Shown one piece after another: positions 55,379-64,000 of a DNA stretch of 64,000 nucleotides (position 1 is the stretch's first letter; the number at the start of each line of letters is the position of its first letter). The translations under genes and the position numbers were made by a program. The stretch lies in NCBI GenBank assembly GCA_045595285.1, contig JAZOAC010000135.1, forward strand, positions 23,822 through 87,821. Direction: 5' to 3'. This stretch comes from Kiritimatiellia bacterium (lineage in GTDB: Bacteria > Verrucomicrobiota > Kiritimatiellia > RFP12 > UBA1067). The notes beneath the pieces are model-generated. The model saw only the letters and a program-made list of their open reading frames with translations. It was not told the DNA's origin and did not search any database.

Positions 55379-57751
55379 TCAGCGAATGGATATTGCAAAA
55401 CCGTACTTCTTCAGATTGGCGATCAGAGTTACGGTACCGGCTTCAGTGACCTTGTCCAATTTGACCTTGTAGGAGGATAGCACGGAAGGACGAATAACCT
55501 CCAACAGATCAAGCACTGCCGCGCAACCGGAATCCACAGTCATCACGCCGAACGAATACTCATTCGCAGGCGTTTCATCGGCACATTCGACATATACCGG
55601 GATCTTCTTGGACGGATTGTCGTCAAGGAATGCAAGCGGCGAAGGCGATTTCACGTTGCAGATACCCTTCATCCGTGGTGTGCAGATCAAGCGCAAAACC
55701 GACTTCAAGCTTGGAAGTCTTGTTTGAGAACACGACATCCAGACCATCCAGTGCATGTGCGCTCAAAGGCTTCACCATGCCGCCCGCCACATAGAAAGTG
55801 CGCTTTGCGGCATCTTCAGGGATTTCGTCTGTTACTGTTCCTTCCGCATCAATAAAACGCAGATCGCCGCCAAGAGCAAGAGTACCGGAGCCTTCCTTGT
55901 ACATTTCTCCGTCAACCGTCAATTGCTGGAAGATCGCAAGTGACTTGTCTTCAGGCACGAGAAAACGTCCTTTCCAACGAATGAAGATGCCGCGGGTAAG
56001 CTCGGCTAGCGACATGCTATCCAGCACTTCCAATCTACTGGCTGAGTCAAGCGTCAAAGCATCATATGCAAATTCATTGCGGGGACCGCCAAGATTCTCC
56101 GCCCGCCGAACGACCAGGGAGGTGAAAGGATAGTTCATCTTAACATATGCTCTCGCATTCGTCGCACAGATTCTGCCGGCGAACCCCCTGTTGTCTCCAT
56201 CTAGACAAATTGTGGCGCCACATCTTGTTTCGGCGAAACCCTGCACTTGCAAAACCGACGCTTCATCGCCGGAGATTGGCCCGACAAGCCGGATTGTTCC
56301 GCTGTATTTTGGGGTCACTATTGTTCTGCCGGATAACATGAAATTGCTTCGTAAAGTCAAGTCACATCCGTCAAGACCTTGAATTTCCACACCGCCTTTC
56401 CCTCCGTCCAAAAGGAGATATGGTATCGTGTAATCTTTAATCCTGAAATATAATTTGGACGGATTTACAAATCGCATGGAACGTCCTGCAAACGACAGAG
56501 TGCCCTCAGGTGCATATCTTGTCGCGAAGCAACCTGTACCAGAACCTATTTTCCCTGTCTGGTATCTTATTCCGTTGCGAACCGGCTGACCATCACTCCA
56601 GTAATTGCCGTCTGTCTCCGCGACCACGGCGTCCTGCATTGTCATATCTATTTTATTGTTCTTAGTCTGCGTCACAAGAGGATAATAAGTAACATATATT
56701 GTCTTGGTCTTCCCATCATCGGAAACTTTCATTTCCACCGATGTTCCAGTCCTTATGTCGTAAGCCTCCTCCAGGATAAAGTCATCCAATGAGCATTGAC
56801 TGTCAACCGGCAGTGTCAGCAATGCATATCTGGTAGCCTCTTCAGGAGCCGAGGTCGGAGCGGTAAAATGTAAAACTGTACCTTTCCCCACCGTCAAACC
56901 ATTTAGAACCGCAAGCGAGCAATCGACAGAAGTCTTGAGCGTCGCACCTGTTTCAAGAGTAAGATTATCACGCACCTCAAAATTAGATACAGCAGACAAG
57001 TCGAGCGTTGCCCCACGCTTCAATATAATCGATCCAACAGATGTATTAACCTCAGCTTTAAAGACAGCGCCATTATCTGCGACAATCGAACCTCCAAAAT
57101 AAGTAGCCTTATCAGCAAGAGTGAATGTTGTGGTCAGAAGAGTTCCTGCTGAATTATATTGTGATGTTACAACCACCTCTCCAAGAAATTCACTTGCATC
57201 ACCCGAGAATTTCAACCCAAACGGACAACTTCCAAATTTGCCATTAACTCCTGAATGAACAATAATTCCACAATCTGATGCTGCATGAACATCATCTTTA
57301 AACGTTAAAGTCTCCTCTTGTTTACCGCTAAAAAGAACAAACGGAGCTGACTTCGGAGACGTAAAAGTCACTTTCCCACTTATTTTCGAACTCGCTGCAT
57401 TTACATGTAACGTACCATTTTCAAGAATCAAGCCACCACTGCCGGAATACGTCGCACTATAATAAGCAAAATAATCTCCAGCCTTTTCCTTATCCCCCAA
57501 TTTTCCAATCGTAAGCGAGCGAGCAGGTATGATCTCTCCACTAGATGTATAATATGTGTAACCTGACACTAAATAATCGCGATTCTTAACATCTTCTCCC
57601 TCTACCTCTGGCTCCCATGTAGCCCCTGCAAAACCAGTATCATGCGAATTATTCTCCTTAAGTCTCACATAATCCTCGCCTTCAGCAAATGCGAAGAATG
57701 GAATGAATGACATTGACAATGCCATAAGTACATTTTTTTTTCGCGGAACAT
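55379..57751 (-). pseudogene. beta-helix/PATR-like exoprotein, paralogue 3, disrupted twice (A9 tract after the start codon; +1 shift near 55665)
   Basis: ORFs 55623..57725 (700 aa) and 55379..55756 (125 aa, ending YGFAISIR like paralogues 1 and 2) form one gene. GGAG-N8-ATG lies at 57749-57763, followed by GAAAAAAAAA, and is out of frame with the 700-aa ORF. Confidence 0.75.
57733..57741 (-). repeat. Homopolymer A9 (T9 on + strand) between ATG/RBS and the signal peptide of exoprotein 3
   Basis: Counted directly: caTTTTTTTTTcgcggaacat. A10 would give MFREKKNVLMALSMSFIPFFAFA-EGEDY. Confidence 0.95.
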
Positions 57752-58009
57752 TTCAAAAACTCCTTTATTACCAAGAACTGGCGCTAATTATATCATATTT
57801 TGTCCGAGTGTGCCCGGGCAGACATGCACCGACTCAAGAACTTAAGAACTCACGACCTATCACACAAGTTGTTTCGCTGCCATACACAAGTCATTCTATT
57901 CATTTCGGCAGTCATGCGTCCCTCAACCTGTTATTTCGCCATAGTCTTGAACTTCTCAGTCACAGTGCGGACAACAAACTTCGGCCGCTGGAGCATAAAA
58001 TACACATTA

Positions 58010-58531
58010 TCATCGATAGACCTCCTCTTTCCATTCGTATGGTTCGGAATATGATTCACCAAGCATCGTCTCAACCATGAACCTGAGAACGCGCGCACCG
58101 TTGAAGAGTTCATGGTATCTTACACGTCCGGCAGATGCAACCGCCGCCCGTTCCGTGTCGTGAGCCTGATATTGCAGGATCTTCTCGGCGAGATCCACCG
58201 CGTCATCGAACCATACGGTCTCACGGTCCGTGAAGAATCGTTACATCTGGTTCTTCGAGGACTGGAACGTAAGTATCCCATAACCCATCAGATGTGCGAT
58301 GCGATCCGACGAATACCACTTGTCCCCTTCCTTGCGGTTCAGGTTGAGCGACATCTTGCTCGTGGCGAGAACATCTTCATAGTCCGCACCCCAAATGGAC
58401 GGCCTGTCCGCGCCAAATATGTCAATGCGCAGCTTGCCTTCAAGCTTTGGCCTAAGTTCCTTCCAAAAGCAAGACAAATAATAATCGACCAATTCAGGTT
58501 TACAGCATTTGATATTATCCCAATCCTGCAA
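58010..58531 (-). pseudogene. 3' remnant of a CgeB/Glyco_trans_1_2-like glycosyltransferase with an in-frame TAA
   Basis: ORFs 58241..58531 and 58010..58198 share one frame, separated by TAA 58241-58243 (…LTFQSSKNQM*RFFTDRETVWFDDAVDLAEKILQYQAHDTERAAVASAGRVRYHELF…). Only the C-terminal about 170 aa are present. Confidence 0.7.
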
Positions 58532-58537
58532 ATCTTG

Positions 58538-59896
58538 TTAATCCTGTCCTATTAACACTTCCCAATGGCCGTTTTTTGCAGCTCCAACGCGCCGTATTCT
58601 GCCGGCATCGGCAAGCTCCTTTATACGACGTGCGACCGTTCGACGCGGCACACCCATAAGCTTCGACAATTCGTCATAGCTGACAAACGGATCGGCCTTG
58701 AGGTTTGCGATAATTTGCAGTGCCAACGATTCGTTATTTACAGGATTTACAGTGCCACATTTTGTTGGTATCTCAAATATATCATCTGCCCTTTGAGTAA
58801 GTTCCTCAATTTTCATAATGCGGCTTTGCAGAAACCTCTCTATTGAGCGCAGTCTGTCTTGCGGCAAGTTATGGTATTTGTGCCGTTTGAAGCGGAAACC
58901 CTTCAACGCCTTCATGCGCTCAAGCATGCTTTTCGTAATGCCACCCGGAAATCCCAGCCACTTTGAGTATAGCGCAGGCTTTACTCGCGAAACATATTTA
59001 GCCAAATCCCAAAACTCGTCAAGTTTATCGCCAGGACGATAAAGTGCCGGCGAAAACAGTCCGTAACCATTATCGAATATGGGAGCTGCACCAACTATCT
59101 CATTTTTATCATTATCAACCAAATACCCAAAATTTCCGAGATGACGGTCGGTGTTGAAAATGAGTGCGTCAAAGAAGAAAATGTCGGCAAAGCGTTTGTC
59201 TTCCAGAGCTTCTGCCACGTTCATTATTCTTCCCGCTGGCAGATATCCAAACTTATCGCTAGTAAAAATATTGCAGGTCGAACACAAATAGCCTTTAAAC
59301 TTGCTTAGCGAATATTCGACATGATCAAGCCCCATCGCAGCAGCAATCTGTGAAGCATAATATTCGGAATAAGGCTCAAATCCCGTATTGGCAGCTCCAT
59401 CCGTTCCAGATTTGTAAAGAACGACCCTTCCATCGATTCTCCGCCAGCATTTCGCGAGCATTCCATTCGTCGAAAATTCAGGCGAAGATATCCAATCAAG
59501 GCACTCAATGGCAGACCCCATTCCGTTAAAAGCAGTGAGCGCAATCACCTGTGAAAATTCATTATCGTAAAGATTGCAATCCTTCCACGATCCCTTAAAA
59601 TCATTCGGCACCACCCAATGAACATCATTAAGCGATAAGCCGCGGCATATCTCGATTATGCCTCGAACATTTCGTGCATCAAGACCCGTCGCCGCCATTA
59701 ATGCGTCTATGTTACGGCGATTACGTGGCACCACACGACGAGACAGCCACCTCCAAAGATTTTCGTCAGAAACATCGCCCTTAAAATCAAGGGGCAGATA
59801 GCGATTATTCCCTTCATCTACCGAAACAATACGAACTCCTTGCGGTTCAATCCATTCAAACCGCAACAGTTCTTTATCTCGATGCTTCAGAATCAT
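58538..59896 (-). CDS. HipA-like Ser/Thr kinase fused to a C-terminal winged-helix DNA-binding domain
   Basis: 452 aa. Kinase core FNTDRHLGNFGYLVDN and PIFDNGYGLF. The C-terminus SYDELSKLMGVPRRTVARRIKELADAGRIRRVGAAKNGHWEVL is wHTH-like. Confidence 0.75.
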   Translation of the reverse strand: MILKHRDKELLRFEWIEPQGVRIVSVDEGNNRYLPLDFKGDVSDENLWRWLSRRVVPRNRRNIDALMAATGLDARNVRGIIEICRGLSLNDVHWVVPNDFKGSWKDCNLYDNEFSQVIALTAFNGMGSAIECLDWISSPEFSTNGMLAKCWRRIDGRVVLYKSGTDGAANTGFEPYSEYYASQIAAAMGLDHVEYSLSKFKGYLCSTCNIFTSDKFGYLPAGRIMNVAEALEDKRFADIFFFDALIFNTDRHLGNFGYLVDNDKNEIVGAAPIFDNGYGLFSPALYRPGDKLDEFWDLAKYVSRVKPALYSKWLGFPGGITKSMLERMKALKGFRFKRHKYHNLPQDRLRSIERFLQSRIMKIEELTQRADDIFEIPTKCGTVNPVNNESLALQIIANLKADPFVSYDELSKLMGVPRRTVARRIKELADAGRIRRVGAAKNGHWEVLIGQD

Positions 59897-60212
59897 TTAA
59901 CTAATCAACTTGAACTTACCCCGTCAAACATGCACATCTCAAATCATCTTTCACGAAAACATGGCGAATAATAGCACTTGCAGATATCAAAAGCAAGCGG
60001 GAAGTTGACGACTTTTGGATGACAAGGCAAAGTGAATGCGACAGCAAACTCTACCATGCCAAGACAACGGGCTTTTTGCCAGTTGTCTTTGATGAGAATA
60101 TGATTCGGACCGATTCTCAACCGATATTGTGCAAGGTAAGGACCCAAAGGCTATTGTAGCTCGCTAGGCATGCGTCCTTGCGCGTTCTTCAGCGGATTGG
60201 GGTTGCGAAGGT

Positions 60213-60470
60213 TCATGTTCCACGACCTGTGTTCGCCCCGGTATGGACATCGGCGTTCTCCTGCCGCCATTTTCCGGCGGCTTCGTCGATCGGATCGAAA
60301 ATCTCCGCCTTCATGAGCGCGACCCTTCTTCCTTCAAGACTCTCGGGATCGACCGATGCGGCGGCACGTTTGAGTATGCGTTCAAGACCGTTGAGAAAGT
60401 CCGCCGTGTATATTTCGCCCATGAGCTTGGCGACAGGCGGCCCGCGCCGCAGTTCCCTGGGCTCATGGCG
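60213..60470 (-). pseudogene. 3' fragment of an unidentified gene
   Basis: The frame is open from 60470 (RHEPRELRRGPPVAKLMGEIYTADFLNGLERILKRAAASVDPESLEGRRVALMKAEIFDPIDEAAGKW…). It has no plausible N-terminus and is fused out of frame to the fragment upstream. Confidence 0.4.
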
Positions 60471-60824
60471 TTATCGAGAATGACCTTCCCATAAAGTTCT
60501 TCCTTGTCGCTATTGTAGCACATTATTGCATTGTTCGCCGAATATGGAGAGTCGTCAACACCACAAGTTTTTCCCTCGGCAATGTACATGCCATTCATGT
60601 CGGTTACACCCCTTAAGACAGTGTCCGTTAGGGCGAAAATTCATGCCGAAAAACACACTAACATCGGCATTTGACACATTGTGGCCTAAATCGTCTACAA
60701 CGTGTATTTTAATTTTTGCCAATGCTCCAGACCTTCTCGCTTCGCGGCAAGAAGAATCTTTGCTTAAAGCAAAAGCAGATGTTGCTGTAATTATCAATAT
60801 TGCAATCACAAAAAACATTCTCAT
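60311..60824 (-). pseudogene. small secreted CarboxypepD_reg-like protein, frameshifted
   Basis: ORF 60555..60824 (signal peptide MRMFFVIAILIITATSAFA … KIKIHVVDDLGHNVSNADVSVFFGMN) continues in the +1 frame as FALTDTVLRGVTDMNGMYIAEGKTCG… (ORF 60311..60598). The shift lies near a T4 run. Confidence 0.5.
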
Positions 60825-60843
60825 TTAAGACCGCCTTTCTCTA

Positions 60844-62337
60844 TTACTTTTTCATAGAATCTAAAATTAAAGCCTGTTCGACTGAAATCTTGTTGACACC
60901 AAACCAATTTTCTTCAATATTCCATCCAGACCAATCGGTTGCACCCAATCCTACACCAAGCCCACGTCCTTTGAATAATTCCTGTATTTTCCAGGCTCCG
61001 CCAGATAATGTAAGCTGCCCGACTTCCGCATTTGCCAAAACATCCTCTGTCGGGGAATAGCAGTTTACGGCATTGGCGATCCCGGCAAATCTTCCACGCC
61101 ACGAAAGTGATGCACGGAAATCATTTGCCGGGAAAAGCTTGCTCCAATTGGCTGCCAAATAATTGGATGGAACCTTCTCCCATTCTTCATCGCACATGAC
61201 AGAAGAAAACGATCCGTTATCATACGCCTCCATCGAAACTGCCGCATTTAGCATGTAATACTTTGAATAATTGAGTCCGTGATCTTTCGCTGCGGACGAC
61301 ACAAGCATATTGCCAAGAGAATGTGCGAGCATCACTTTCTCTCCGGGAAGATCACGGCAGGACTGCACAAGCGCAGGTGCAGACTGAAAAGCATTCTTCA
61401 CATTGACGTAATAATCTGGCGATATCTGCTTATCCGAGAACATCAACGAGAACTGCGACCCGTCACCTTTCCAGTTCACCGCCGTGAACATGGACTTCAT
61501 GCCCGAAAGCCGCAGGCGCTTGAACATCTGATCGCCCCATTTGCGGGCATCTGCAGGATTTACGTTGTAACCGTGCACAAATACAAAGTGTTGTCCATCG
61601 CATTCCGAATCGGGGAGGTTGTTCGGCTCGTAGAGCCGTGACGGTTCGCCGCCGGTGCCGCCGCAGACGCTGCGGATGTTGAGCCACCGGTACATTTCCC
61701 TTACCGAAGAAATTGATATCGGCATCGGGAATGAGAGGATTGTCTCATCGCCCAACTTCACCCCAAGCGTGACATTCTCATGCGATGCCGCTGCCTCGAA
61801 TGCAAGGATGCCAGGCGCGTTGTCTTCGCCCAAAAGCTCCGATGGATTTATCTGCATTGCGTCATACTGAAGCGCGGTCAATGGCGCGGAATGCAAAGGC
61901 GTGTCAGCGTTTTTCGTAAAAGTATCGTCAGTATATATCTTGCCTGCTTCATTCGGATTCACATCCACGGCACAGTAGCGCATGGCATTTTCGCCGTGTG
62001 CGGAGAGCTCGAACTTGACCGACGATCCCCACGCATCGATGAACGGCTTCAGGTCGAGCCTTGCGGCAAAAAGGTTCACAAGGTCGTACCTTCCATTCAC
62101 AACGCCGTCGGCGGCGTTTCGCGCATTATATGCATAACGGACAAGATAGATAGTACCCCATTCTGAAAGAATGTTGTCGAAAGAATCGTATGTGTGGAAG
62201 ATAGTGTTGCATAGTACATCAATTGTTTCGACACTATTGCCGAATTTGTCGTATGCATACGATCCAAGGACAATTAAATCATCATTGGCACCCGTAATTT
62301 TATTATGCTTGATGCAACCTCTGCAAAACATGTCCAC
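60844..62337 (-). CDS. YD-repeat-containing protein with C-terminal alpha/beta-hydrolase (lipase/esterase-like) domain; possible orphan polymorphic-toxin module
   Basis: 497 aa. N-terminal YD repeats SYAYDKFGNSVE and HTYDSFDNILSEWG. The hydrolase part carries HFVFVHGYNVNP and the nucleophile elbow LAHSLGN. The ORF-track start is a GTG; ATG-TTT-TGC follows 2 codons later. Confidence 0.65.
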   Translation of the reverse strand: MDMFCRGCIKHNKITGANDDLIVLGSYAYDKFGNSVETIDVLCNTIFHTYDSFDNILSEWGTIYLVRYAYNARNAADGVVNGRYDLVNLFAARLDLKPFIDAWGSSVKFELSAHGENAMRYCAVDVNPNEAGKIYTDDTFTKNADTPLHSAPLTALQYDAMQINPSELLGEDNAPGILAFEAAASHENVTLGVKLGDETILSFPMPISISSVREMYRWLNIRSVCGGTGGEPSRLYEPNNLPDSECDGQHFVFVHGYNVNPADARKWGDQMFKRLRLSGMKSMFTAVNWKGDGSQFSLMFSDKQISPDYYVNVKNAFQSAPALVQSCRDLPGEKVMLAHSLGNMLVSSAAKDHGLNYSKYYMLNAAVSMEAYDNGSFSSVMCDEEWEKVPSNYLAANWSKLFPANDFRASLSWRGRFAGIANAVNCYSPTEDVLANAEVGQLTLSGGAWKIQELFKGRGLGVGLGATDWSGWNIEENWFGVNKISVEQALILDSMKK

Positions 62338-62381: not shown

Positions 62382-63554
62382 TCACCCATTCCCCTTGACG
62401 CGATTATGGTGTTTGCAGAGCATCTGGCAGTTCTTCTCGGATGTATCACCACCTTTCGACCATGCGGTGACATGATCAGCCTCCATCTCTCCAAATGCGT
62501 AGATACGCTTTGCATTCGCCCCGTGCGCCAGTACACAATCTGGGCAATTCGAAATTCCTTTCTCAACGGCGTCTTCTGTCTGTCTTCTGTAAACACGTTT
62601 AGCAACCGCTTCCTTGAATATTCTTATCCTTAAAAGCCTACGATCGGTTTCGCCGCCAAGGATATACTCAAAAATATTTCTCCTGTTCTTGATGATGTCA
62701 TTGTCTGCATCCGCATAAAGAGCCTCCACTCGTGCCCACACTTCGTCAGGAGAGTACGGCTTATCATGATAAACTTCGTAAAGACGCCCCCATTCAACAC
62801 CACGCATTTCATTTTTCACATCCTTGAACACCCCATCAATCCAATTCATCACACTGTTGAAATATGCCGTAATCTCGGCAATATCCGCATTATACTGATG
62901 ATCTTTCATGTAATCCTTAACATGACCTTTAGAGACCCATTCCAAAGCCTTTGCCAAGATGGCCTGTCTTTTCTCGTCGCCATCGACGAAATGTTTCCAC
63001 TTATTCATATTCGCATTGGTCGAATTGCTGAATACTGCTTTAGCGGCAGTTACAAAGGGCCCAGAATATGTCGCATTCAGAAGTTCCTGATCGTTAAGCG
63101 GTTTTCCCGCAATATTGATAGTCCTGAACCAGTCCTTTATTTCAGACTCCGGGTCATCGCCTTCCCCTTCGCAGATATAAATCGTAAGCGGTGTTTTTAG
63201 CAACCATCCATGGTGTGCAGGATCAAACTTGTGCGGCATCCCGTTTGCATCCAAAACATCCAGTTGTCCTGTCACGAACCGCCCAAAACTCGTTATGCGC
63301 TGTTGACCATCCAGAACTTCGTACTCGTCACCGTTCTTCAAAAAGTAAATGAGACCAATTGGGTACTTCTTCAATAGCGACTCGACGACCGCAACATCAT
63401 CCTTACCGTTCGCATAGATGTAATTGCGCTGATACTCCGGCTGAATGACGAGTTTCCCGCTCCAGCCTCTAACACCTTTACCTTCCAGCGTGTTGTAGTA
63501 AAAACCTTTACAGATATCTCCTACGGTTATGTCGGTGCGAAGTTCAGTTTTCAT
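62382..63554 (-). CDS. DUF262 (ParB-like nuclease superfamily) protein fused to an HNH endonuclease
   Basis: 390 aa. IQPEYQRNYIY and VLDGQQRITSFGRF (DUF262 DGQQR motif). C-terminal CPDC … EADHVTAWSKGGDTSEKNCQMLCKHHNRVKGN (HNH with CxxC/CxxH zinc ligands). Confidence 0.8.
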   Translation of the reverse strand: MKTELRTDITVGDICKGFYYNTLEGKGVRGWSGKLVIQPEYQRNYIYANGKDDVAVVESLLKKYPIGLIYFLKNGDEYEVLDGQQRITSFGRFVTGQLDVLDANGMPHKFDPAHHGWLLKTPLTIYICEGEGDDPESEIKDWFRTINIAGKPLNDQELLNATYSGPFVTAAKAVFSNSTNANMNKWKHFVDGDEKRQAILAKALEWVSKGHVKDYMKDHQYNADIAEITAYFNSVMNWIDGVFKDVKNEMRGVEWGRLYEVYHDKPYSPDEVWARVEALYADADNDIIKNRRNIFEYILGGETDRRLLRIRIFKEAVAKRVYRRQTEDAVEKGISNCPDCVLAHGANAKRIYAFGEMEADHVTAWSKGGDTSEKNCQMLCKHHNRVKGNG

Positions 63555-63610: not shown

Positions 63611-64000
63611 TCACTTTTTATGACGAATAAGAATACGGAAATACGGATACTCACCTCCAATATTCAAATCTTTATTATCATCTCCAATACGAAACTTTAT
63701 TATCTCAAACTGTTCCGGACAGTACTTATCAAGAAATGAGATCGGAACTCCCATAGCTCCATTGTAATCAGATGGAATCGCATCCGTAAATGGCACTTCG
63801 ATAGCATCATAGTTGTCGTATTTCCGATATCCTTTACCCTTCACCTCCTTGTGACGCGAATACTTGATGTTATCCGCCATAGACATAAGTTGCAAGGGCA
63901 AATGCCGCCGACCATGCTCTACATTGGTAAACCATCTGACGCCCGGCACACGAATAAATCCTTCCCGATAGTCGTGTGAATTATAGTAACTGAGAGATTT
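63611..64000 (-). CDS. M.EcoRI-family N6-adenine DNA methyltransferase, 5' end outside the window
   Basis: The frame is open to nt 64000. The C-terminus YRKYDNYDAIEVPFTDAIPSDYNGAMGVPISFLDKYCPEQFEIIKFRIGDDNKDLNIGGEYPYFRILIRHKK closely parallels the M.EcoRI C-terminus as I remember it (…YPKYDNYDAINV…DYNGVMGVPITFL…PEQFELIKFR…PYFRILIKNK). Confidence 0.75.
   Translation of the reverse strand, partial: KSLSYYNSHDYREGFIRVPGVRWFTNVEHGRRHLPLQLMSMADNIKYSRHKEVKGKGYRKYDNYDAIEVPFTDAIPSDYNGAMGVPISFLDKYCPEQFEIIKFRIGDDNKDLNIGGEYPYFRILIRHKK

What the first reader, a model, noticed from the sequence alone, without database searches (positions are those of the whole stretch)
58538..59896. Solo HipA-like kinase with a winged-HTH fused in cis and no HipB/HipS partner
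The 452-aa ORF has a HipA-type kinase core: the catalytic loop FNTDRHLGNFG and the Mg-binding PIFDNGYG. Its last about 60 residues (SYDELSKLMGVPRRTVARRIKELADAGRIRRVGAAKNGHWEVL) form a winged helix-turn-helix.
Canonical HipA toxins depend on a separately encoded HTH antitoxin immediately upstream. Here the 316 nt upstream (59897-60212) contain only a Cys/Pro-rich 67-aa ORF with no HTH character, and downstream lies a glycosyltransferase remnant.
A kinase carrying its own DNA-binding module, located in an AT-rich island next to a nuclease/methylase pair and a toxin-like gene, could be a self-contained toxin-regulator or an abortive-infection/defence effector rather than a classical TA pair.
Basis: partly seen in the sequence, partly recalled or inferred. 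Interest (0 to 1): 0.65.

Follow-up and report, generated by a model that had tools for sequence, protein, structure and literature searches.

The report
Solo HipA-like kinase fused to wHTH
A gut Kiritimatiellae bacterium carries a stand-alone, apparently active toxin-type protein kinase joined to its own DNA-binding domain, with no antitoxin gene beside it; this is a new arrangement of a known theme, not a new kind of system.

Summary
ORF 58538-59896 (-) is a real, conserved 452-aa gene. It has three parts: a HipA-like N-subdomain, a HipA/CtkA-fold kinase core whose catalytic residues are invariant in 80 relatives, and a C-terminal winged HTH. A variable linker joins the core to the wHTH.

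No partner gene is conserved. In 28 related PVC-bacterial loci the neighbours differ (glycosyltransferase operons, a glycoside hydrolase, an rnf operon). Intergenic gaps are often 0-40 nt. Homology to relatives of 79-81% nucleotide identity stops at the ORF ends. The gene has lower GC than its flanks in 26 of 26 loci.

The wHTH fusion is a small clade inside a large, uncurated family of ~375-aa kinases. Other members carry an N-terminal XRE HTH, or have an overlapping Phd/YefM antitoxin gene, or lie near TA and defence genes. The wHTH is the type found on SoFic-type Fic enzymes.

The best reading is a self-contained, toxin-like kinase-regulator, analogous to HipH/YjjJ, HipL and SoFic. Toxicity, DNA binding and a defence role are untested. 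The defence-island setting seen in this window is not conserved.

I rate it a new variant of a known kind, of moderate interest.

The parts
58538..59896 (-). Whole gene: 452-aa HipA/CtkA-superfamily kinase with a C-terminal winged HTH
   Evidence: The ORF is listed. There are 3484 homologues. Foldseek gives CtkA at E 1.6e-7 and HipA at about 1e-5. dN/dS is 0.03-0.13 in the folded parts.
59537..59896 (-). N-terminal subdomain (residues ~1-120), equivalent to HipA N-subdomain 1 and to HipS, present in cis
   Evidence: The AF2 model has pLDDT about 90 for residues 1-50. The Foldseek alignment to full-length HipA spans 450-475 columns. R54, P57, R60 and G86-D91 (GLSLND) are conserved in at least 95% of 80 relatives. 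dN/dS is 0.05-0.13. There is no Pfam Couple_hipA hit, so the equivalence rests on fold only.
58802..59536 (-). Kinase core (residues ~121-365)
   Evidence: CtkA aligns to residues 175-319 at E 3e-11 with the family profile. HipA_C matches residues 225-275. PADLOC PDC-M03A gives E 8e-15. dN/dS is 0.03-0.11.
59438..59482 (-). Gly-rich (P-loop-like) motif P139-E-F-S-T-N-G-M-L-A-K149-C-W-R-R153. S142/T143 lie at the position of the HipA S150 autophosphorylation site (inferred).
   Evidence: P139, E140, T143, G145, M146, L147, K149, W151 and R152 are invariant in 80 relatives. Position 142 is always S or T. The correspondence to HipA S150-x-x-G-x-x-x-K157 was made by eye against the known HipA motif and not by an alignment tool.
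59126..59158 (-). Catalytic loop F247-N-T-D250-R-H-L-G-N255-F-G257
   Evidence: N248, D250, R251, H252, N255 and G257 are invariant in 80 of 80 relatives. hhalign aligns the loop to HipA ...TDGHAKNF... (D309/N314 region) and to HipH ...SDMHAGN....
59060..59083 (-). Mg-binding DFG-equivalent motif P272-I-F-D275-N-G277-Y-G
   Evidence: P272, F274, D275 and G277 are invariant in 80 of 80 relatives. The motif aligns to CtkA APIFDCG.
58727..58801 (-). Flexible interdomain linker (residues 366-390)
   Evidence: pLDDT is below 50 for residues 370-386. dN/dS is 0.3-1.0, against 0.03-0.13 elsewhere. It carries an 8-residue indel in alignment A1. The ~375-aa relatives end here.
58553..58726 (-). [quoted passage not shown]
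   Evidence: Pfam HTH_24 gives E 1.4e-7, above cut-off. The model shows three helices and a beta hairpin. dN/dS is 0.05-0.12. It resembles the wHTH of Fic proteins: PDB 7cb8 at E 0.0015, PADLOC SoFic at E 4e-4, and an HMM of it hits a Fic-wHTH protein at E 3.5e-10.
59897..59999 (-). About 105-nt upstream segment that travels with the gene. It contains a promoter-like TTGCTT-17 nt-TATTAT (about 59967-59995) and AAGTT repeats just before the ATG.
   Evidence: Homology to L014 (94% nt) extends to window 59999 and then stops. The promoter reading is by eye on the sequence and is inferred. The consensus scan did not list this site.
58010..58531 (-). Downstream glycosyltransferase C-terminal remnant. 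It is not part of the system and is broken by a nonsense codon at 58241-58243.
   Evidence: Glyco_trans_1_2 gives E 2.1e-5. The ORF is 160 aa in sister contigs. The window has CAA->TAA.

Best explanation
The gene encodes a self-contained, horizontally acquired protein kinase of the HipA/CtkA superfamily. It is toxin-like and carries its own DNA-binding module.

Shown:
- It has a HipA-like two-part kinase (N-subdomain plus core) with every catalytic residue conserved.
- A near-neutrally evolving linker follows the core.
- A selectively constrained wHTH of the SoFic/Fic-associated type sits at the C-terminus.
- It has no conserved partner gene.
- It is compositionally foreign.
- It sits as a single-gene unit in unrelated operons.

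Inferred:
- The kinase phosphorylates a Ser or Thr on a host protein, probably a translation component as for HipA, HipT and SoFic, and slows or stops growth when active.
- Activity is restrained in cis. One route is autophosphorylation of the S142/T143 loop, as at HipA S150. Another is the N-subdomain and the wHTH.
- The wHTH, probably as a dimer, binds DNA and supplies the autoregulation or tethering that a separate HipB gives in hipBA. HipH/YjjJ does this with an N-terminal HTH, and SoFic/CccR do it with a C-terminal wHTH.

The evidence does not say whether the pay-off for the element is addiction or persistence, or phage exclusion.
For: **Fold and family**
- Foldseek gives CtkA at E 1.6e-7, then HipA of E. 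coli and S. oneidensis over 450-475 columns.
- The family profile hits CtkA at E 3e-11.

**Active-site conservation**
- P139, E140, T143, G145-L147, K149, K162, E174, E178, N248, D250, R251, H252, N255, G257, D275 and G277 are invariant in 80 relatives. These come from PVC bacteria, Clostridia, Beggiatoaceae and spirochaetes.

**Selection**
- dN/dS is 0.03-0.13 in the N-domain, the kinase core and the wHTH. It is 0.3-1.0 in the linker.

**Solo status**
- No neighbour family is shared beyond syntenic subgroups.
- An 85%-identical copy lies between a GT8 gene and a hexapeptide transferase gene, with gaps of 40 nt and 0 nt.
- A 66%-identical copy starts 2 nt after a glycoside hydrolase gene.
- Another copy lies between rnfB and rnfC with gaps of 0 and 3 nt.
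- DNA homology to relatives of 79-81% nt identity covers exactly 58551-59897.

**Foreign composition**
- GC is below the flanks in 26 of 26 PVC loci, by a mean of 7.6 points.

**Toxin character of the wider family**
- A Phd/YefM antitoxin gene overlaps the kinase start by 4 nt (1 nt in L082) in L056, L064, L065 and L082.
- HTH_17 or XRE genes lie just upstream in L090 and L058. A ParE toxin gene and a PIN-domain fragment lie immediately upstream of the kinase in L067 and L054, respectively.
- Plasmid copies sit next to zeta toxin, MazEF and Fic genes.
- About 12 of 94 immediate neighbours hit defence models.

**Repeated recruitment of DNA-binding domains**
- An N-terminal XRE HTH is present in P0143, P0151, P0161, P0169 and P0198. 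P0270 carries an Arm DNA-binding domain.

**Precedents**
- HipH has an N-terminal HTH and HipL a C-terminal HIRAN domain, both in monocistronic operons (PMC8262856).
- Dimeric SoFic binds its own promoter through its wHTH (bioRxiv 10.64898/2026.07.09.737422).
- A HipA-like kinase acts as the toxin in a validated defence pair (PMC12548924).
Against: - No experiment bears on toxicity, substrate or DNA binding.
- Many copies lie inside operons with almost no intergenic space. A role for the wHTH in repressing its own promoter cannot be general.
- No conserved operator was found. The 12-nt inverted repeat at 60061-60089 lies outside the segment shared with L014.
- One PVC-clade member (L038) lacks the wHTH altogether. 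Most of the family manages without any DNA-binding domain. The wHTH is therefore not needed to hold the kinase in check.
- The sequence relation to HipA and HipH is confined to the catalytic loop.
- The model is of only moderate confidence (pLDDT 72.9). The Gly-rich loop region 123-147 is below 50.
Confidence: 0.5

Rival explanations
1. It is a single-gene abortive-infection or defence effector, a kinase counterpart of SoFic. The kinase stays inactive until phage infection. The trigger might be sensed through the wHTH, for example foreign DNA or a phage protein. The kinase then phosphorylates a translation factor and stops the cell.
For: - In this window the gene lies in a low-GC island 2.5 kb from a type II R-M pair. 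That pair is a GmrSD_N+HNH nuclease (PADLOC REase_II, E 3.6e-67) and an EcoRI-like methylase.
- The best PADLOC hits are the HipA-like PDC-M03A models (E 8e-15).
- The wHTH is homologous to that of SoFic-type Fic proteins.
- SoFic is a validated defence gene, and a HipA-like kinase with DUF3037 is a validated defence pair.
- About 12 of 94 immediate neighbours of the wHTH-less relatives are defence genes.
- In L031 and L016 the gene is accompanied by other accessory genes (DUF4062+HATPase_c_4, T5orf172).
Against: - Only about 3 of 51 immediate neighbours in the wHTH clade hit true defence models.
- Many copies sit in housekeeping-type operons.
- The PDC-M03 partner, a HIRAN protein, is absent, and the PDC-M03A match covers only residues 233-281.
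- No enrichment statistic against a genomic background could be computed.
- Only 11 relatives, none carrying the wHTH, are on IMG/VR viral contigs.
Confidence: 0.25
2. It is a non-toxic one-component signalling protein. It would be a transcription factor whose HipA-like domain phosphorylates itself or a specific target to tune gene expression, for example of surface-polysaccharide loci, and would have no toxin or selfish character.
For: - NCBI and JGI annotate members as wHTH, ArsR-type or BirA-type regulators.
- The gene lies within or next to glycosyltransferase clusters in the window and in L007-L011 and L016.
- It holds a conserved syntenic position in the rnf operon across seven species.
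- Both domains are under strong purifying selection.
Against: - Contexts are unrelated to each other, so there is no common regulon.
- GC is consistently foreign.
- Kinases in the rnf position are only 55-88% identical to each other, while the flanking Rnf gene segments are about 85-96% identical.
- The wider family is linked to Phd/YefM, ParE, PIN, MazEF, zeta and Fic genes and to plasmids.
Confidence: 0.15
3. It is a classical two-component TA or defence pair whose small partner was missed. The partner could be a short ORF or an RNA, like the AS1 antitoxin found late downstream of SoFic.
For: - SoFic was thought to be solo until a short downstream antitoxin gene was found (PMC12249575).
- My ORF survey used cut-offs of 50-60 aa.
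- The 316-nt upstream gap in the window holds unannotated short ORFs.
Against: - tblastx of 400 nt on either side across all PVC loci found nothing shared beyond syntenic subgroups.
- Many loci have 0-40 nt on both sides.
- Homology to the 79-81% nt relatives ends at the ORF boundaries.
- Rfam finds no RNA family in 57600-60900.
- A partner nested inside the ORF or encoded elsewhere is not excluded.
Confidence: 0.07
4. It is a small-molecule (sugar or lipid) kinase acting in polysaccharide biosynthesis, and the HTH is incidental.
For: - It lies next to glycosyltransferase genes in several loci.
- Foldseek also gives weak hits to PI4-kinase II alpha (E about 1e-3).
Against: - The glycosyltransferase context is not conserved.
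- The closest structural and sequence relatives are protein Ser/Thr kinases (CtkA, HipA, HipT).
- The S/T-bearing Gly-rich loop typical of autophosphorylating Hip kinases is conserved.
Confidence: 0.03

Closest known systems
HipH (YjjJ) of E. coli K-12, a monocistronic Hip kinase with an HTH in cis
   Same: It is a solo HipA-superfamily kinase with no adjacent antitoxin gene and with a DNA-binding HTH fused to the kinase. The HTH has been proposed as a possible cis-acting antitoxin or regulator (PMC8262856).
   Different: In HipH the HTH is N-terminal and of the simple Cro/XRE-like type. Here it is a C-terminal winged HTH behind a flexible linker. Sequence relation is limited to the catalytic loop (hhalign probability 5.8%). 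The NCBIfam YjjJ model scores 22.6 bits against a cut-off of 401.
HipA of the hipBA type II toxin-antitoxin system
   Same: It has the same overall two-part fold, an N-subdomain plus a kinase core (Foldseek over 450-475 columns). The catalytic D/N/D residues are equivalent, and a Gly-rich loop carries S/T at the autophosphorylation position.
   Different: There is no HipB gene. The Pfam HipA_C score is below the cut-off. Structural-alignment identity is 10-14%. An extra wHTH is present. The target is unknown.
CtkA (JHP0940) of Helicobacter pylori, PDB 3akj
   Same: It is the closest solved relative by both sequence (E 3e-11 with the profile) and fold. It is a solo kinase gene on mobile or variable DNA. 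Relatives of the family studied here are on Helicobacter and Campylobacter plasmids.
   Different: CtkA (325 aa) aligns only to residues ~175-319. The match covers neither the N-subdomain nor the wHTH of this protein. From my own recollection of the literature, not checked here, CtkA is described as a secreted, host-cell-translocating kinase. Nothing suggests secretion of this protein.
SoFic / CccR-type class II Fic enzymes with a C-terminal wHTH
   Same: The layout is the same: a toxin-type protein-modifying enzyme, then a helical connector, then a C-terminal wHTH. The wHTH modules are detectably homologous (7cb8 E 0.0015; PADLOC SoFic E 4e-4; Fic-wHTH hit E 3.5e-10). SoFic binds its own promoter as a dimer, targets EF-Tu and acts in phage defence.
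   Different: The enzymatic domain is a kinase, not an AMP-transferase. A short downstream antitoxin (AS1) is known for an E. coli SoFic homologue and has no counterpart here.
HipL, and the PADLOC candidate PDC-M03 (HipA-like kinase plus HIRAN protein)
   Same: These are HipA-like kinases combined with a DNA-binding domain, in cis (HipL) or in trans (PDC-M03). PDC-M03A models are the best PADLOC hits (E 8e-15; composition from PMC13245101; HipL from PMC8262856).
   Different: The DNA-binding domain there is HIRAN, not a wHTH. HipL lacks the N-subdomain and has an internal HipS-like domain. The PADLOC match covers only the catalytic region 233-281. No HIRAN gene is nearby.

Membership tests
HipA/CtkA kinase superfamily | HipA-type kinase fold | tested here: met
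   Foldseek of the AF2 model gives CtkA at E 1.6e-7 (TM for the target 0.57) and HipA at E about 2e-5 (TM about 0.5).
HipA/CtkA kinase superfamily | Catalytic Asp and Asn in the D-x-H-x-x-N loop, the Mg-binding Asp, and the ATP-binding Lys are conserved | tested here: met
   D250, H252, N255, D275, K149 and K162 are invariant in 80 relatives. The loop aligns to HipA and HipH.
HipA (Pfam HipA_C, PF07804) | Score at or above the Pfam gathering threshold | tested here: not met
   The score is 26.9 bits against a cut-off of 30.5, and only residues 225-275 match. Some relatives pass, for example P0133 at 41.7 bits.
hipBA type II toxin-antitoxin module | An adjacent, co-transcribed HTH antitoxin gene (hipB) | tested here: not met
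   There is no HTH ORF in the 316 nt upstream. No neighbour is conserved in 28 PVC loci.
hipBA type II toxin-antitoxin module | The kinase is growth-inhibitory and phosphorylates an aminoacyl-tRNA synthetase | not testable with these tools
   This needs expression and phosphoproteomics.
hipBST tripartite module | A separate HipS gene and a HipT kinase that lacks the N-subdomain | tested here: not met
   The N-subdomain is part of the polypeptide (residues 1-120). There is no adjacent small gene.
HipH / YjjJ | Membership of the YjjJ equivalog (NCBIfam NF007297) and an N-terminal HTH | tested here: not met
   The score is 22.6 bits against a cut-off of 401. The HTH is C-terminal. hhalign probability is 5.8%.
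PADLOC PDC-M03 (HipA-like kinase + HIRAN protein) | Both genes A and B present | tested here: not met
   The A model gives a partial hit (E 8e-15, residues 233-281). No B (HIRAN) gene is found among the window neighbours or among 145 neighbours in related loci.
SoFic-type Fic-wHTH enzymes | Fic (HPFx[D/E]GN[G/K]R) catalytic domain | tested here: not met
   There is no Fic hit in Pfam. Only the C-terminal residues 354-439 resemble Fic-wHTH proteins.
Winged HTH (Pfam HTH_24, clan HTH) | Score above the gathering threshold, and a three-helix plus wing topology | tested here: met
   The score is 31.4 bits against a cut-off of 21.9. The model shows H391-401, H407-414, H418-430, E434-437 and E444-447.
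Winged HTH (Pfam HTH_24, clan HTH) | Sequence-specific DNA binding | not testable with these tools
   No conserved operator was found. EMSA or ChIP is needed.

The most novel reading that the evidence does not exclude
The kinase-wHTH is a one-polypeptide toxin-immunity or sensor-effector module. It would be the kinase counterpart of SoFic. The same mobile C-terminal wHTH cassette would have been joined to two unrelated toxin enzymes, Fic and a HipA-like kinase. The wHTH would sense or tether to DNA (its own promoter or invading DNA) and gate a translation-targeting kinase. This would let a toxin live without an antitoxin gene and insert as a single ORF into essential operons such as rnf.
Probability: 0.25. 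Interest if true: 0.65.

Novelty: new variant of a known kind. Interest (0 to 1): 0.45.

Why it matters
How a toxin kinase is kept harmless without an antitoxin gene is still open for HipH/YjjJ and HipL. This clade offers a compact natural test case. It has a kinase, a neutral linker and a wHTH. It has natural wHTH-less relatives (L038 and the ~375-aa family). It also has relatives that use a trans antitoxin (Phd/YefM) or an N-terminal XRE HTH instead.

It also exposes a large family that current annotation misnames. There are 4179 clusters at 50% identity with E<=1e-3. Members are labelled 'XRE family transcriptional regulator', 'wHTH transcriptional regulator' or 'biotin operon repressor', and the kinase goes unnoticed. 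No Pfam or NCBIfam model reaches its cut-off for the window protein (a few relatives pass HipA_C).

The same type of wHTH sits on both Fic enzymes and this kinase. That suggests domain shuffling between toxin classes on a common regulatory scaffold.

Tried and rejected
1. **Conserved partner gene.** All-against-all BLASTP of ORFs of at least 50 aa within 2.5 kb in 80 loci. Pfam and PADLOC scans of nearest neighbours. tblastx of 400-nt flanks. Nothing is shared beyond syntenic subgroups.
2. **Separately encoded homologue of the wHTH next to the ~375-aa kinases (gene-fusion origin).** An HMM of residues 386-452 against all ORFs of 91 loci found none. It hit only a Fic-wHTH protein and a DUF4062/HATPase_c_4 protein.
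3. **Operator.** The inverted repeat 60061-60089 lies outside the segment conserved with L014. I rejected it as a conserved operator.
4. **Upstream RNA element.** Rfam found nothing in 57600-60900.
5. **Direct sequence link to HipA or HipH.** hhalign covers only the catalytic loop, at probability 17.6% and 5.8%.
6. **Taxonomic names for divergent full-length clusters.** The cluster look-up returned none.
7. **Campylobacter plasmid paralogues of ~450 aa.** They looked like the same fusion, but their C-terminal extension is not a wHTH.
8. **Phage origin.** Only 11 IMG/VR contigs and 11 GenBank phage records carry relatives, all without the wHTH.
9. **The 67-aa Cys/Pro-rich ORF as a partner.** It has no family hit, was not called in sister contigs, and lies mostly outside the conserved upstream segment.
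Full report
**1. The observation**

The 452-aa ORF at 58538..59896 on the minus strand exists as described. It contains FNTDRHLGNFG (residues 247-257) and PIFDNGYG (residues 272-279). Pfam places a winged HTH (HTH_24) at residues 393-435, above its threshold. HipA_C matches only residues 225-275 and falls just below its threshold, at 26.9 against 30.5 bits. NCBIfam has no family for it. The YjjJ model scores 22.6 bits against a cut-off of 401. PADLOC's best hits are the HipA-like PDC-M03A models, at E 8e-15, again over the catalytic region only.

The 316 nt upstream hold only short ORFs with no family match. Gene callers did not call these ORFs in six sister contigs. Downstream lies a C-terminal glycosyltransferase fragment. 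It is 160 aa in sister strains and is cut by a CAA->TAA change in the window. The region 57-64 kb has 46% GC, against 56% for the rest of the window.

**2. What the protein is**

An AlphaFold2 model built on a 25-sequence alignment has pLDDT 72.9 and pTM 0.67. Its best PDB match is the H. pylori kinase CtkA at E 1.6e-7. HipA of S. oneidensis and E. coli follow, aligned over 450-475 columns at TM about 0.5, and then HipT. The match to full-length HipA includes the N-terminal subdomain. The HipS-equivalent part is therefore in cis, as it is in HipA.

A profile of the family finds CtkA at E 3e-11 in PDB sequences. Profile comparison with E. coli HipA and HipH aligns only the catalytic loop. This is a deep, separate branch of the HipA/CtkA superfamily.

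In an alignment of 80 relatives from several phyla, the following are invariant:
- the Gly-rich loop P139-E-[FL]-[ST]-T-x-G-M-L-x-K149-x-W-R;
- K162, E174 and E178;
- the catalytic loop N248-x-D250-R-H-x-x-N255-F-G257;
- P272-x-F-D275-x-G277.

Position 142/143 carries Ser/Thr. By my own comparison with the known HipA motif, this is where HipA S150 is autophosphorylated.

The model's C-terminus is a three-helix bundle plus a beta hairpin. Pairwise dN/dS is 0.03-0.13 for the N-subdomain, the kinase core and the wHTH. It is 0.3-1.0 for residues 366-390, which also have low pLDDT and an indel. The protein is thus two constrained modules joined by a free linker.

**3. Family and distribution**

The word-indexed search returned 3484 homologues. 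The exhaustive search of 50%-identity representatives returned 4179 clusters at E<=1e-3 and 421 at E<=1e-30.

In one genome per GTDB species, more than 586 loci encode a relative. The 28 closest (L014-L041) are from Kiritimatiellae or Lentisphaerae MAGs, or from bins likely to contain such contigs. They are mostly from ruminant and human gut. Their ORFs are 451-508 aa with the wHTH. L038 is the exception and ends at residue 375.

All others are about 375 aa, 42-45% identical over residues 2-365, and lack the wHTH. They come from Clostridia, Erysipelotrichales, Beggiatoaceae, spirochaetes and other groups. Public names for them are 'HipA domain-containing protein' or 'XRE family transcriptional regulator'. 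The wHTH forms are named 'winged helix-turn-helix transcriptional regulator', 'ArsR family regulator' or 'biotin operon repressor'.

Other members of the family carry different additions. P0143, P0151, P0161, P0169 and P0198 have an N-terminal XRE HTH. P0270 has an Arm DNA-binding domain. P0253 has a KfrB domain.

An HMM of the wHTH finds it only on the PVC kinases, on a Fic-wHTH protein and on a DUF4062/HATPase_c_4 protein. It never appears as a separate gene beside a short kinase. Residues 354-439 resemble the C-terminus of Fic-wHTH proteins (PDB 7cb8 at E 0.0015; PADLOC SoFic at E 4e-4).

**4. Is it really solo?**

No neighbour family recurs beyond syntenic subgroups, by three tests:
- clustering of all ORFs of at least 50 aa within 2.5 kb in 80 loci;
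- Pfam and PADLOC scans of nearest neighbours;
- tblastx of 400-nt flanks.

The contexts differ from locus to locus:
- An 85%-identical copy sits in a polysaccharide gene cluster. It lies 40 nt after a GT8 gene and directly abuts (0-nt gap) a hexapeptide transferase gene.
- A 66%-identical copy starts 2 nt after a glycoside hydrolase gene.
- In seven species the gene lies between rnfB and rnfC with gaps of 0-3 nt.

DNA similarity between the window and the 79-81%-identical copies covers 58551-59897, which is the ORF and nothing else. With the 94%-identical L014 it extends about 105 nt upstream and about 16 nt downstream. By eye, that upstream segment contains TTGCTT-17 nt-TATTAT. The consensus scan did not list this site.

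The kinase gene has lower GC than its flanks in 26 of 26 PVC loci, by a mean of 7.6 points. In the rnf position the kinases are only 55-88% identical to each other, while the flanking Rnf segments are about 85-96% identical.

Together these results describe a single-gene accessory unit of foreign composition.

**5. Evidence on function from relatives**

In a Clostridia subclade (L056, L064, L065, L082) a 65-67-aa Phd/YefM antitoxin gene overlaps the kinase start by 4 nt (1 nt in L082). Elsewhere an HTH_17 gene (L090) or an XRE gene (L058) lies just upstream. ParE and PIN genes are adjacent in L067 and L054.

Plasmid copies in Campylobacter and Helicobacter lie next to zeta toxin, MazEF and Fic genes.

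About 12 of 94 immediate neighbours of the short kinases hit defence models. These include PDC-S01, PDC-S04, mad3, a type I restriction enzyme, BrxA, PbeA, a type IV restriction enzyme and SoFic. In the wHTH clade the figure is about 3 of 51.

Only 11 relatives are on IMG/VR contigs and 11 on GenBank phage records.

**6. Mechanism**

Shown:
- an intact HipA/CtkA-type kinase with a cis N-subdomain and a cis wHTH;
- purifying selection on each folded part;
- no conserved partner gene.

Inferred:
- It is a protein Ser/Thr kinase that is growth-inhibitory when active.
- It is held in check within the same polypeptide, by loop autophosphorylation and/or domain contacts.
- The wHTH provides DNA binding.

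The precedents are as follows:
- HipH/YjjJ has an N-terminal HTH in a monocistronic operon (PMC8262856).
- HipL has a C-terminal HIRAN domain (PMC8262856).
- SoFic and CccR are Fic-wHTH enzymes that bind their own promoters. SoFic AMPylates EF-Tu (bioRxiv 10.64898/2026.07.09.737422).
- A HipA-like kinase with DUF3037 forms a validated defence pair in which the kinase is the toxin (PMC12548924).

Three cautions apply. Copies embedded in operons have no promoter of their own to repress. L038 and the whole short family do without the wHTH. For an E. coli SoFic homologue, a short downstream antitoxin was found only later (PMC12249575).

**7. Comparison and novelty**

It works like HipH, HipL and SoFic but is not a member of any of them (see the membership table). 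I found no paper in the searchable library that describes a HipA-like kinase with a C-terminal wHTH. It is a new variant of a known kind: a lineage-restricted domain fusion within a large, uncurated Hip-like kinase family.

**8. Verdict**

- Interest is moderate (0.45). The concept of a solo Hip kinase with a cis DNA-binding domain is already known, and the defence-island context does not generalise.
- Points in its favour are the Fic/kinase swap on a shared wHTH, the insertion as a bare ORF into operons such as rnf, and the natural series of variants. These make it a usable model for cis-regulated toxins.

Noticed in passing
L031:5182-12312 (also L030, L033-L035, L037, L039): An rnf operon is interrupted by accessory genes, with gaps of 0-3 nt around the kinase gene. 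The order is rnfB, then the kinase-wHTH, then rnfC, then a DUF4062+HATPase_c_4 gene, then a T5orf172+DUF5655 gene, then rnfD and rnfG. The kinase holds the same position in seven species. It is far more divergent (55-88% identity) than the flanking Rnf segments (about 85-96%).
   Followed up: partly
L056:601-801, L064:643-840, L065:892-1089, L082:5795-5989: In a Clostridia subclade of the wHTH-less kinases, a 65-67-aa Phd/YefM antitoxin gene overlaps the kinase start codon by 4 nt (1 nt in L082). This is an apparently undescribed Phd-Hip-like kinase bicistron.
   Followed up: partly
window 62382-63554 (-) and 63611-63949 (-): A type II restriction-modification pair. One gene is a 390-aa GmrSD_N + HNH nuclease (PADLOC REase_II, E 3.6e-67). 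Next to it is the C-terminal part of an EcoRI-like adenine methyltransferase, whose ORF probably runs on towards the window end.
   Followed up: partly
window 60844-62337 (-): A 497-aa protein with a borderline DUF900 / alpha-beta hydrolase match (20.5 bits, exactly at the cut-off). I did not characterise it further.
   Followed up: no
window 58241-58243: The downstream glycosyltransferase fragment is 160 aa in sister strains. In this window it carries a CAA->TAA nonsense change, which splits it into ORFs of 96 aa and 62 aa.
   Followed up: yes
window 55623-57725 (-) compared with L001:3311-5653: The 700-aa protein next to the island is 780 aa in sister contigs. Nucleotide identity drops from about 99% to about 82%, with a gap in the alignment between 57665 and 56003. 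This looks like a strain-variable protein with no Pfam match.
   Followed up: no
L021:757-2139 and L021:3696-5075: Two full-length kinase-wHTH paralogues lie within 3 kb in one Kiritimatiellae MAG.
   Followed up: no
L108:2631-5329 (Campylobacter helveticus plasmid NZ_CP037749.1): Two tandem paralogues of the kinase family (451 aa and 447 aa; the stop of the first overlaps the start of the second by 1 nt). They have a non-wHTH, charged and probably helical C-terminal extension. A 67-aa ORF and a zeta-toxin gene follow. On an H. cinaedi plasmid (L109) a family member directly precedes a Fic gene.
   Followed up: partly
window 60061-60089: A 12-nt inverted repeat (AAGACAACGGGC / GCCAGTTGTCTT, 5-nt spacer) lies about 165-190 nt upstream of the kinase start. 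It is outside the segment conserved with L014, and its function is unknown.
   Followed up: partly
L038:917-2503: A PVC-clade kinase, 60% identical to the window protein, ends at residue 375 and has no wHTH. A 140-aa ORF follows 36 nt later and encodes a predicted C-terminally membrane-anchored protein.
   Followed up: partly
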